A DNA stretch of 64,000 nucleotides from Escherichia coli. Its GTDB lineage: Bacteria > Pseudomonadota > Gammaproteobacteria > Enterobacterales > Enterobacteriaceae. Where the stretch lies: assembly GCF_003334255.1 (NCBI RefSeq), contig NZ_QOWU01000019.1; one strand, given 5' to 3'. Below are positions 11,585-14,284 of the stretch, one piece after another. Position numbers and translations under genes: made by a program. Positions within the stretch are counted from its first letter, which is position 1. Every line of letters starts with the position of its first letter. The notes under the pieces are model-generated. The model saw only the letters and a list, made by a program, of their open reading frames with translations, was not told the DNA's origin and did not search any database.

Positions 11585-14284
11585 ATTTACCTTTTACAAA
11601 AAATAAAGATTATTGACAAAACTAAATATAAATAACGACTGCCTCGGCATGCCAGTTAACAGCTATCCGTATGGCGTGTTCGGTTTTGCGAATAAAAAAT
11701 GGTTACTGTAGAAGCGGATTTCCACCACATGTCAACCATGAATGGTCAGTGGTGCGAGACGACTGGGATGATTTGGTCGATGACTTCTTCCGGCGAATAC
11801 TGATAGAAACATTGAAATATTGTAAGAGAAAGCGTTCAAAATTCTGTGGCACGTGAAAAATTCTACAGCGTCATCACCTTATTCAGTCGACCTTCAAAAT
11901 AAACGTTTAACAGAGACAATCACCATTTGGATTGTCCGCTGAGGAGGTGAACGATTTCCTAGACAGCTTTATCATGCCAGCCCACATTGTTGGCGCTGAC
12001 AATACTAAGGACAAACGATGGGGAAGTAGCTTTTTAGCGTTATTTTCGGGAGTAAAAAACGTGGTATCTTTCCGTATGTCAGTTGTATCTTGCTGGTATT
12101 CGTAGTCGTGATAGGGCATACAACGATATTTATCTTGACGTTAGTGAAGAATAAGTTGTTTTGTGATCTATGTTAATCTAGGATTACAATCCGGGCTTGA
12201 TACATCGCATCACGACTTTTATTCTCTTCAGAGTAGAATATGTTACTCCCCGTTTTACAGGCTCAGGATTTGAATTACAAATTATACTTTTAAGTGAACA
12301 ATAACCAGGGGTATTTCTTATTTCCTGAAACCAGGCTTGGCCCATTTCGGGATGAGTTTGAAAAAACTCTTGACGCATACGATAGTGATGAAATAAACGA
12401 AACAAATTACGTCAACAAACTCAGGCGTCTTGCCTGACATGCTCCTGACATCATTGATATTCACGCTCATCTGGCATATGCATTTGCGCTCTTTATGCTG
12501 CAATTCTGGCGAATGTTCATTTACAGCGTCATCAGGATGCCGTTATACTCATTGATAAAATACTAACATATAACCCTGAGAATAATCAGGGGACACGCTG
12601 GTTACTGGGGGCGGAATTGTTACGTGCTGGCAAGCATGACAGGGCTCTGTACGTATTGACAGGACATGTCAATGAATTTCCCCCCTACTGGTACGAGCTT
12701 GCTCTTTTACATTTTATGAATGAGGAATATATTAATGCTGCAACGGCATTTCGATATGGATTTTTAACAAGCATATATTGTTGAAATGCTTTGTTAGAAT
12801 CTTTATCCATTCCCTGGGGCTGTATAGTATGATTTTTCAGGTATTTCTGAATACTGCCAAATATTATTGCAAAATATTCTCTAAATTATGAATTAAATAT
12901 CCATAAGCATTATTGCCTGGGAACTGGACATATAATCACTCTTCTGTGCTAAAGGAATGTTCTGAAATGTTTAAGTGTGCAGAGATGTTGATGGTGGAAG
13001 AAGATGATAAAGTATGTGAACTTATTTTTAAACAACAAGATAATTTGATTTTAAAAATAAATCATAGATTTCCCAGAATAATTATAAAGAAATACCGAAC
13101 ATTACAAGGTAAAGTCGTATGGCTATGGATATTGCCATTTGTTATTGAATGGTTAAGTGTGCGCACTTTGGGCGCAAACAGTTAGTGAAGTAAAAGTAAA
13201 TATCATGATTATTGTTTGTTAAGGAGTGAGATGCCTGTGCGTCTGGTGTCTATTATATTCCCATCATTATTGGCGCTATTTTTGCTGGCGTAGGCATCGC
13301 CACACTATGAATATTGTGTTTGTCGTGATTCAATTTTTATTTATAACCTCTACCCGGAGCAAATTCAGGTAGGTCATGCATAAAAATATCTTTCTATACT
13401 ACGAAACTACGAAACTACGAAAATTATTTTTGTGAAAGTATTGACAACGCTAACTATTTTTAATTATATATTCATGGTGCTCTAGGCATCACATTTTCTC
13501 CATGGGGTATTCCCTCCGCCGGCACTATGTGTTGCTGGCGTTTTTTTTATCAATTCTTACTTTTTAATCCCACTGTCCTTTCCACCAGAAACATACCTCG
13601 TTTCTACTGTATTTTGAGAATATAGTTCCCAGAATACCAATTATATATAATACGTTGTAATATATGTATTCCAATTAAAGCCGTTATTATAATAATTATC
13701 ATATATGGTTCTTTTCATGTTGATTTCGTCAGAAACAGAAAATGCTGATGATGAATTGTGAATAATCAAACTGACCTCTAATTATCCTGTATGGAGTAGT
13801 GCTTATTTTCGACTCAATTTCTACTGATTATATTATGGTTATCAGTACAGTGGGTTATGAAAAACGGACTGGATCTGCCAGCAGTGCTTCTATTATTCTT
13901 CAAAAAGAACTTCAGCCGGACAATGCTATAATCCAGGGAAAGGCTATAAGCTCTGTTGGACGGAATGTGGAAATCAGCACTGGTAAAAAGGGGAACTGAC
14001 ATTAACACAAGAAGGATTCCTGCAAGCAACTGCTTATCTGTCCGGAACGCAGAATTAAAGCATGACCACACAGGAGCCAGAATACTGTGGTCGTACGCAT
14101 TCAGTATTGTGACAACTAATAGAAATAAAAATCTGGCCGGTGCGAATATTAAACGATGCGATACCGTATAGTGTAAGTCAAAAGTAACGGGGTATTTAAA
14201 CCATCTTTTCATATTTATTTAATATAATGCAGATTCTGATGTATTAGTTCAGTTGTTCGCCAGAATCAGCGCTCGATCACTATG

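What the first reader, a model, noticed from the sequence alone, without database searches (positions are those of the whole stretch)
13398..13421. Short tandem repeat (ACTACGAA x3)
A perfect threefold octamer repeat lies in the AT-rich gene-poor block. It could be a slipped-strand variable site, but nothing else supports a function.
Basis: seen in the sequence. Interest (0 to 1): 0.1.

Follow-up and report, generated by a model that had tools for sequence, protein, structure and literature searches.

The report
Hypervariable octamer repeat upstream of esr41
The three-copy ACTACGAA repeat is a real, fast-changing tandem repeat (1 to 20 copies among E. coli strains) at the upstream edge of the promoter of Esr41, a small RNA that controls iron uptake, colicin sensitivity, motility and virulence genes; whether its length changes Esr41 output has not been tested.

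Summary
There are 3.1 perfect copies of ACTACGAA at 13398-13422, where chance predicts about 3e-5 such arrays per window.

The locus occurs in 695 of 5426 complete E. coli genomes, and copy number ranges from 1 to 20.
- All O157:H7, O111, O145 and O104:H4 genomes sampled have 1 copy.
- Many extraintestinal strains have 2.
- Mostly Shiga-toxin-producing and bovine isolates have 6-20.

Every copy in the 23 alleles I read is perfect. Near-clonal strains with 0-1 SNP across 20 kb of flank carry 12, 13 and 17 copies. Changes in array length therefore accumulate much faster than point mutations.

The block is not empty. Rfam places the known Hfq-dependent sRNA gene Esr41 at 13476-13549. That puts the array at -78 to -55, directly abutting a near-perfect UP-element-like A/T tract, a consensus TTGACA -35 hexamer and a TATATA -10 hexamer.

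The array is non-coding. It matches no operator consensus I tested.

My best reading is a slippage-driven VNTR that moves upstream DNA in 8-bp steps and at most tunes esr41 transcription. A neutral marker remains a strong rival. No paper I could search mentions the repeat.

The parts
13398..13421 (.). Tandem array of three perfect ACTACGAA units (a VNTR). It lies at -78 to -55 relative to the Esr41 5' end.
   Evidence: Copy number is 1-20 in other E. coli.
13380..13401 (+). Upstream A/T tract ATAAAAATATCTTTCTATACTA, which resembles an UP element (12 of 14 specified positions). This is the DNA that each added unit pushes 8 bp further from the core promoter.
   Evidence: only 11 positions in the window score 12 or more; it forms an imperfect inverted repeat with 13419-13434. 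Consensus match only; function is inferred.
13418..13440 (+). UP-element-like tract (C)GAAAATTATTTTTGTGAAAGTA, directly downstream of the array. Its first bases belong to the last repeat unit. It spans about -58 to -36.
   Evidence: 13 of 14 matches to NNAAAWWTWTTTTNNNAAANNN in two adjacent registers, the only positions in the whole window (both strands) scoring 13 or more. Function is inferred.
13441..13446 (+). -35 hexamer TTGACA (consensus) of the esr41 promoter.
   Evidence: Position is relative to the Rfam-defined 5' end. Invariant in 23 alleles. Inferred from consensus.
13465..13470 (+). -10 hexamer TATATA, with an 18-nt spacer from the -35 and 5 nt to the +1 G.
   Evidence: Invariant in 23 alleles. 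Inferred from consensus; the simple scanner did not list it because its rule requires T at position 6.
13476..13549 (+). Esr41 (EcOnc14) sRNA gene, full length.
   Evidence: Rfam RF02676, 103.4 bits (gathering score 102), model positions 1-74 of 74; alignment; fold of -24.9 kcal/mol, z-score -3.1.
13517..13548 (+). Intrinsic terminator of Esr41: an 8-pair GC-rich stem followed by a run of eight T.
13431..13446 (.). CRP-core-like palindrome TGTGAAAGTATTGACA (9 of 10 positions), overlapping the -35 hexamer and centred at -37.5. This is a lead only.
   Evidence: 10 positions in the window score 9 or more. The extended 22-mer consensus scores poorly.

Best explanation
The array is a hypermutable octanucleotide VNTR that gains and loses whole ACTACGAA units by slipped-strand mispairing during replication. 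It lies in non-coding DNA at the upstream boundary of the sigma-70 promoter of the sRNA gene esr41. The order along the DNA is: A/T tract, array, UP-like A/T tract, TTGACA, 18 nt, TATATA, +1.

Expansion leaves the UP-like tract and core promoter untouched. It moves everything upstream (the second A/T tract and any factor bound there) away in 8-bp steps, each a rotation of about 274 degrees. The array therefore cannot act as an on/off spacer switch. At most it tunes esr41 transcription in a graded, helical-phase-dependent way.

Shown here: the array, its variability, its rapid turnover, and its position next to the gene. Inferred: the slippage mechanism, the promoter assignment, and any effect on Esr41 level.
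For: The array is perfect and far beyond chance.

The 23 alleles read directly carry 1-20 units. All units are perfect, and all length differences are whole units.

An evenly spaced sample of 60 of 696 records gave 47 with 1 copy, 7 with 2 and 6 with 5-20. The top 60 records hold alleles of 2, 3, 4, 7, 8, 9, 11, 12, 13, 14, 16, 17 and 20 copies.

Three Okinawa bovine strains have 20.2 kb of flank with 0-1 SNP but 12, 13 and 17 units. Four loci of one IS3-bearing haplotype differ by 1-5 SNPs per 9.8 kb but carry 8, 11, 16 and 20 units.

The window's closest relative (99.8% over 23 kb) has 2 units against 3 here.

Repeated assemblies of related isolates agree with each other (7/7, 8/8/8 and 8/8/8), which argues against assembly artefact.

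Esr41 lies at 13476-13549. The best UP-like match in the whole window directly abuts the array, and the -35 is a consensus TTGACA. The stretch 13304-13476 has one SNP among 23 alleles.

Established knowledge (mine, not tested here): E. coli MutS does not repair loops longer than about 4 nt, so 8-nt slippage loops escape mismatch repair.
Against: There are no expression data for any allele. All published Esr41 work I could read used O157:H7, which has the 1-copy allele.

I recognised no operator upstream of or within the array. Fur and IHF scans were at background level, and the unit matches MetJ, CytR and Cra octamers at only 4-5 of 8 positions.

Observed copy numbers show no preference for a helical phase.

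About 78% of sampled genomes carry a single copy, which cannot slip.

A second VNTR (GCATCGTATA, 1-5 copies) lies 1 kb downstream beside a degraded transposase pseudogene. This island therefore accumulates slippage arrays where no function is apparent.

The transcription start is taken from the Rfam model boundary, not measured here.
Confidence: 0.6

Rival explanations
1. The array is a selectively neutral VNTR. It is a mutational by-product in AT-rich, horizontally acquired DNA, has no effect on Esr41 or anything else, and is useful only as a strain-typing marker.
For: No operator or coding function was found. A second VNTR lies 1 kb away in degraded IS DNA. Most genomes have collapsed to, or stayed at, 1 copy. 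Copy numbers show no phase pattern. Insertion upstream of an intact UP-like tract and consensus -35 hexamer may leave promoter strength unchanged.
Against: The array sits exactly at the upstream edge of the promoter of a regulatory sRNA. The 94 nt upstream of it are invariant in 23 alleles, whereas 13144-13303 carries about 45 variable sites. That contrast is only suggestive, since the background downstream is also low. Long, pure arrays of 8-20 units persist in many lineages.
Confidence: 0.4
2. The array is a true contingency locus. Its length switches esr41 between distinct expression states at high frequency, because a regulator (or H-NS, Fis, IHF or CRP) bound upstream must be in phase with the core promoter, as in the nadA TAAA tract of Neisseria meningitidis.
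For: The position upstream of the -35 hexamer mirrors nadA. Turnover among near-clonal strains is rapid. A/T tracts flank the array and form an imperfect inverted repeat. A CRP-core-like site overlaps the -35 hexamer.
Against: No flanking operators were identified. No regulator of esr41 is described in the papers I could read. Identical copy numbers in several groups of related isolates suggest rates below those of classical contingency loci. E. coli is not known to use SSR contingency loci (my knowledge).
Confidence: 0.2
3. The units are themselves protein-binding sites. The array would be a variable-length operator, comparable to the tandem 8-bp metboxes bound by MetJ, so that more units recruit more regulator.
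For: An 8-bp tandem period is the format of MetJ operators (my knowledge). All units are kept perfect.
Against: The unit is not palindromic. It matches the metbox at 4 of 8 positions, the CytR octamer at 5 of 8 and the Cra half-site at 5 of 8, in the best rotation and strand. The 1-copy allele dominates in strains where Esr41 is known to be expressed. Perfect units are also what ongoing slippage would produce.
Confidence: 0.05
4. The array causes translational phase variation of a small ORF. The ORF starting at ATG 13376, preceded by AGGTAGGT, reads through the array, and each unit shifts the frame by 2 nt.
For: The plus strand of the array has no stop codon in any frame. The ORF length is 19-81 aa depending on copy number.
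Against: In all three phases the ORF ends 12-62 nt after the array, so no phase opens a substantial protein. The 'protein' would be mostly a YETTKLRN repeat. It has no NCBIfam match. No CDS is annotated under the 261-nt query (window 13300-13560) in any of the 120 listed RefSeq records. In the window the ORF is under 20 aa.
Confidence: 0.04

Closest known systems
TAAA tract upstream of the nadA promoter in Neisseria meningitidis (Metruccio et al. 2009, PMC2791445)
   Same: Both are simple-sequence repeats located upstream of the -35 hexamer, not in the spacer. Copy number changes the distance and phase between distal promoter elements and the core promoter. Both lie next to a virulence-related gene.
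   Different: The nadA unit is 4 nt; this one is 8 nt. NadR operators and an IHF site flank the nadA tract and explain the effect, whereas no operators were found here. The downstream gene here is an sRNA, not an adhesin. Expression differences are demonstrated for nadA and untested here.
NikS (HPnc4160) sRNA of Helicobacter pylori, with a variable T-stretch in its promoter
   Same: Both are virulence-regulating trans-acting sRNAs whose promoter region carries a hypermutable repeat.
   Different: The NikS repeat is a homopolymer inside the core promoter region with a shown effect on transcription. This one is an octamer array upstream of the UP-like tract with no shown effect. The organisms have very different SSR biology.
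E. coli VNTR (MLVA) typing loci, such as the O157-n and CVN loci (my own knowledge)
   Same: Both are short tandem arrays, often in horizontally acquired DNA, whose copy number differs among closely related strains and which are treated as neutral markers.
   Different: I did not find this locus in any paper by its repeat unit in any rotation or strand, or by MLVA plus iha. It cannot serve for O157:H7, which has one copy. It abuts a known sRNA promoter.
Esr41 / EcOnc14 sRNA locus of the O157:H7 island SpLE1 (OI-43/48) (Waters et al. 2017, PMC5286369; Sudo et al. 2014 and 2018, not held)
   Same: It is the same gene, with the same position downstream of iha, the same terminator and the same core promoter.
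   Different: The characterised O157:H7 allele has a single ACTACGAA, so the repeat is invisible in the strain everyone studied. In the window the gene lies on an island next to ulaE, in a strain closest to a commensal human isolate, not in an enterohaemorrhagic strain (EHEC).

Membership tests
VNTR / slipped-strand simple-sequence repeat | Head-to-tail identical units | tested here: met
   3.1 copies at 100% identity. All units are perfect in 23 alleles of up to 20 copies.
VNTR / slipped-strand simple-sequence repeat | Copy number differs among strains by whole units, between conserved flanks | tested here: met
   Alleles of 1-20 copies. The 30 nt upstream are identical in all alleles; the 62 nt downstream differ at only two SNP sites (window 13451 and 13477).
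VNTR / slipped-strand simple-sequence repeat | Variation is faster than point substitution (near-clonal isolates differ) | tested here: met
   12, 13 and 17 copies with 0-1 SNP in 20.2 kb. 8, 11, 16 and 20 copies with 1-5 SNPs in 9.8 kb.
VNTR / slipped-strand simple-sequence repeat | Measured gain and loss rate within a clonal culture | not testable with these tools
   Needs a fluctuation assay or amplicon deep sequencing.
SSR-mediated transcriptional phase variation (nadA type) | The repeat lies within or just upstream of the promoter of the controlled gene | tested here: met
   The array spans -78 to -55 relative to the Rfam-defined Esr41 5' end, followed by a UP-like tract, TTGACA, 18 nt and TATATA. 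The promoter is inferred from consensus, not mapped.
SSR-mediated transcriptional phase variation (nadA type) | Expression level depends on repeat number | not testable with these tools
   The papers I could read give no expression data for multi-copy alleles.
SSR-mediated transcriptional phase variation (nadA type) | Regulator or architectural-protein sites flank the tract | tested here: inconclusive
   Only A/T tracts (12/14 and 13/14 UP-like), an imperfect inverted repeat and a CRP-core-like site were found. Fur and IHF were at background.
Esr41 sRNA (Rfam RF02676) | Covariance-model score at or above the gathering threshold over the full model | tested here: met
   103.4 bits against 102, positions 1-74 of 74.
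Esr41 sRNA (Rfam RF02676) | 3' GC-rich hairpin plus U-run, and a location downstream of iha | tested here: met
   Terminator at 13517-13540 plus eight T. In the collinear closest relative (strain G8, locus L012) iha lies at 9429-11519 on the minus strand, which equals window coordinates to within a few bases.
Coding-region SSR (translational phase variation) | The array lies inside an ORF, and one reading phase yields a substantial conserved protein | tested here: not met
   No ORF of 20 aa or more covers the array in the window. In all three phases the mini-ORF stops 12-62 nt after the array. No family match.
MetJ-type tandem 8-bp operator | Palindromic 8-bp units resembling AGACGTCT | tested here: not met
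   The unit is not palindromic, and the best rotation and strand matches 4 of 8 positions.

The most novel reading that the evidence does not exclude
Array length heritably sets the level of Esr41. Lineages and subpopulations of non-O157 E. coli would then differ stochastically in CirA-dependent colicin Ia/Ib sensitivity, haem and siderophore uptake, and motility. As far as I know, this would be the first repeat-controlled sRNA, and one of very few SSR contingency loci, in Enterobacteriaceae. O157:H7 would be locked at one unit.
Probability: 0.2. Interest if true: 0.65.

Novelty: new member of a known kind. Interest (0 to 1): 0.35.

Why it matters
Esr41 represses cirA, chuA, bfr and the LEE, and raises flagellar expression (PMC5286369, PMC8565820, PMC9387321). 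All of that work used O157:H7, whose allele has a single octamer.

The gene is called EHEC-specific in the literature. Here it is present in 695 of 5426 complete E. coli genomes, including urinary, commensal, poultry and non-O157 Shiga-toxin strains. Roughly a fifth of those sampled carry 2-20 units at the edge of its promoter.

If length affects transcription, strain-to-strain and within-lineage differences in colicin resistance, iron acquisition and motility would have a simple, testable genetic basis. If it does not, the locus is still a high-resolution typing marker for iha-positive Shiga-toxin-producing and extraintestinal E. coli, where O157-derived MLVA schemes are uninformative.

Tried and rejected
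- **Chance or assembly artefact.** Rejected. Shuffles and the analytic expectation exclude chance. Repeated assemblies of related isolates give identical counts.
- **Coding repeat.** Rejected.
- **Fur box, IHF and Fis.** Best scores in 13300-13480 are ordinary for this window: Fur 12/19, a score reached by 187 positions; IHF 7/9; Fis 8/9.
- **MetJ, CytR and Cra octamers.** 4-5 of 8 matches and a non-palindromic unit.
- **CRP.** The core matches 9/10, but the site is centred at -37.5, the full 22-mer is poor, and half of it is simply the -35 hexamer. Kept only as a lead.
- **Other RNA families around the array.** At E-value up to 1, only Esr41 and a sub-threshold overlap with it.
- **Literature.** No paper contains the unit in any rotation or strand. 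None combines MLVA, iha and tandem repeat. Sudo et al. 2014 and 2018, the papers most likely to describe the promoter, are not held.
- **Other species.** An exact 27-mer of Esr41 in one genome per species found only a 4-kb contig binned as Collinsella, with a 1-copy allele identical to the O157:H7 allele across the ~190 nt compared, so it is probably mis-binned.
- **Plasmids.** Three records, all 1 copy.
- **Full census of all 696 records.** Not feasible. The search tool lists at most 60 rows, and identity bands do not separate alleles whose matches come in two pieces. Frequencies are therefore sample estimates.

Full report
**1. The observation**

Positions 13398-13421 read ACTACGAA three times without a mismatch. 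Tandem Repeats Finder extends the array to 13422: period 8, 3.1 copies, 100% matches, score 50.

It is the only array in the window with at least three perfect copies of a 6-12-nt unit. Twenty shuffles gave none. The analytic expectation with the local base composition is 3.4e-5 for an octamer. The 16-mer made of two units, allowing two mismatches, occurs nowhere else and in none of 100 dinucleotide-preserving shuffles.

The surrounding kilobase has 34% G+C, so 'AT-rich' is correct.

**2. What surrounds it**

Rfam places the full-length Esr41 sRNA (RF02676) at 13476-13549 on the plus strand, at 103.4 bits against a gathering score of 102. It has an 8-pair terminator hairpin and eight U. Its fold is more stable than all 200 shuffles.

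Taking 13476 as +1, the features upstream are:
- a consensus TTGACA at 13441-13446;
- an 18-nt spacer;
- TATATA at 13465-13470.

The stretch 13418-13440 matches the UP-element consensus NNAAAWWTWTTTTNNNAAANNN at 13 of 14 specified positions. These are the only positions on either strand of the window that score that high.

The array therefore occupies -78 to -55, and its last unit supplies the first bases of the UP-like tract. A second A/T tract (12/14) lies just upstream of the array, at 13380-13401. The two tracts form an imperfect inverted repeat around the array.

The promoter elements are consensus matches, not mapped sites.

The larger context comes from the closest complete genome: strain G8, a faecal isolate from a healthy person, 99.8% identical over 23 kb. 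There the locus lies on a genomic island bounded by a tyrosine recombinase next to ulaE. The island carries iha (9429-11519, minus strand), IS remnants and a ferric ABC transporter.

**3.

The 261-nt segment around the array is present in 695 of 5426 complete E. coli genomes.

I read 23 alleles directly. They carry 1, 1, 1, 1, 2, 2, 3, 3, 6, 7, 7, 8, 9, 9, 11, 11, 12, 13, 14, 16, 16, 17 and 20 units. Every unit is perfect.

Match spans in the search tables convert to copy number, and the 15 hits that were also read directly agreed exactly.
- An evenly spaced sample of 60 of 696 records gave 47 with one copy, 7 with two, and 6 with 5-20. The one-copy group includes all listed O157:H7, O111, O145 and O104:H4 genomes.
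- The 60 best records held 12 alleles of two copies, 7 of three, 2 of four, 7 of seven, 17 of eight, 5 of nine, 3 of eleven, 2 of sixteen, and one each of 12, 13, 14, 17 and 20.

Long arrays are found mainly in Shiga-toxin strains of serotypes such as O113:H21, O91:H21, O104:H21, O22:H8 and O178:H19, in bovine isolates and in some urinary isolates.

**4. Speed of change**

Three bovine strains from Okinawa share 20.2 kb of flanking DNA with 0-1 SNP, yet carry 17, 13 and 12 units.

Four loci of one IS3-bearing haplotype differ by 1-5 SNPs over 9.8 kb and carry 20, 16, 11 and 8 units.

The window has one unit more than its nearest relatives, which have two.

Separately assembled related isolates agree with one another (7/7, 8/8/8 and 8/8/8). 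The differences are therefore unlikely to be assembly noise, and the rate is probably below that of classical contingency loci.

Whole-unit changes in a perfectly homogeneous array are the signature of slipped-strand mispairing. From established knowledge, 8-nt loops are too large for MutS, which would favour such changes. This mechanism is inferred, not shown.

A one-copy allele has nothing to slip on. That fits its dominance and its stability in O157:H7.

**5. What it could do**

*Coding.* The array is not coding. No ORF of 20 aa or more covers it in the window. A mini-ORF from ATG 13376 reads through it, but in all three phases it stops 12-62 nt past the array, would be mostly a YETTKLRN repeat, and has no family match.

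*Operator.* The array is not a recognisable operator. The unit is not palindromic. It matches the MetJ, CytR and Cra octamers at 4-5 of 8 positions.

*Spacer.* Because the array lies upstream of the UP-like tract and the -35 hexamer, its length cannot alter core-promoter spacing. What changes is the distance and rotational setting of everything upstream, by 8 bp or about 274 degrees per unit.

The nearest worked-out precedent is the TAAA tract upstream of nadA in the meningococcus. There, repeat number alters the spacing of NadR operators and an IHF site. Without the repressor, it causes only minor differences through RNA polymerase contacts (PMC2791445).

Here I found no flanking operators. 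There are only A/T tracts and a CRP-core-like TGTGAAAGTATTGACA overlapping the -35 hexamer and centred at -37.5, which is not a canonical activating position.

The 94 nt upstream of the array and the core promoter are almost invariant: 1 SNP in 13304-13476 among 23 alleles. The stretch 13144-13303 carries about 45 variable sites. Diversity downstream is also low, so this contrast is only suggestive.

**6. Verdict on mechanism**

I rate it as near certain that this is a slippage-driven, hypervariable VNTR abutting the esr41 promoter. Whether length affects Esr41 output is open.

My estimates are:
- about 0.4 that it is effectively neutral;
- about 0.35-0.4 that it measurably tunes transcription;
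- about 0.2, within that second figure, that it behaves as a true contingency switch.

Against function stands a second VNTR (GCATCGTATA at 14463-14481, with 1, 2, 3 or 5 copies among strains) 1 kb downstream, beside a degraded transposase pseudogene. Observed lengths also show no helical-phase pattern.

**7. Comparison with what is known**

Esr41 (EcOnc14) is a characterised Hfq-dependent sRNA of the O157:H7 island SpLE1 (OI-43/48), downstream of iha. It represses cirA, chuA and bfr, confers colicin Ia/Ib resistance in a sensitive (DH5alpha) background, represses ler and the LEE, and raises fliC expression and motility (PMC5286369, PMC8565820, PMC9387321, PMC7873438).

None of the papers I could read describes its promoter, its regulators or a repeat. 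The two primary papers by Sudo et al. are not held. No paper contains the repeat unit in any rotation or strand.

The strain used in all that work has a single unit, which explains why the repeat was not noticed.

As a kind of element, a promoter-proximal SSR or VNTR is well known. This is a new member of that kind, in an organism and next to a class of gene where such elements are unusual.

**8. Scores**

Interest is 0.35. The finding is real, clean and apparently undescribed, and it sits next to an important regulator. It has no functional evidence, and a neutral explanation is fully adequate.

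Noticed in passing
window 14463-14481: A second VNTR with unit GCATCGTATA has 1.9 copies here and 1, 2, 3 or 5 copies in other strains. It lies at or just beside the degraded DDE-transposase pseudogene downstream of Esr41.
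   Followed up: partly
window 13231-13293 (+): A 20-aa hydrophobic ORF, MPVRLVSIIFPSLLALFLLA, lies behind a strong AAGGAG Shine-Dalgarno sequence, about 180 nt upstream of Esr41, and looks like a small membrane peptide. The start codon is ATA in 3 of 23 alleles and the Shine-Dalgarno sequence varies, so coding is doubtful. It has no NCBIfam match.
   Followed up: partly
window 13144-13303 versus 13304-13476: There is a sharp change in diversity among 23 alleles: about 45 variable sites in 160 nt (the end of the 72-aa hypothetical ORF and the small ORF), then one variable site in the next 173 nt up to the Esr41 start. This could be a recombination boundary or constraint on the promoter-upstream region.
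   Followed up: no
window 13431-13446: A CRP-core-like palindrome, TGTGAAAGTATTGACA (9/10), overlaps the esr41 -35 hexamer and is centred at -37.5. Only 10 positions in the window score this well.
   Followed up: partly
whole locus; Esr41 is called EHEC-specific in the literature. Here it is present in 695 of 5426 complete E. coli genomes, including urinary (EC2, UPEC 26-1, ST69), commensal (G8), poultry, ETEC and non-O157 Shiga-toxin strains. Some genomes carry two loci with different repeat numbers (strain G8 has 2 and 4).
   Followed up: partly
window about 4900-25800 (L012 annotation): The iha-Esr41 segment lies on an island bounded by a tyrosine recombinase (about 24538-25719, minus strand) directly next to ulaE. 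In other strains the same segment lies next to atoB and btuB-like genes, or next to the aerobactin genes iutA and iucD. The segment therefore moves between islands.
   Followed up: no
window 13477 (+2 of Esr41): There is an A/G polymorphism at the second base of Esr41. The window has G, which turns the A-U pair of the 5' hairpin into a G-U wobble and keeps the stem.
   Followed up: no
window 47932-48054, 51406-51463, 51543-51585, 28049-28133: Other Rfam matches above threshold are ES239, STnc450, ES036 (CssrF) and the RpsF leader.
   Followed up: no
L001 about 14147 equivalent; window about 14910: Other small length polymorphisms occur in the right flank: a 9-nt duplication (TATTAAACG) in strain VTB96816v and an 18-nt indel (AAACAAAGGTGCCCCGGT) that is absent from the window and from O157:H7.
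   Followed up: no
L013 (JAIJJM010000258.1): A 4.3-kb contig binned as a Collinsella MAG carries the E. coli Esr41 locus with the one-copy allele. This is almost certainly a binning error.
   Followed up: partly
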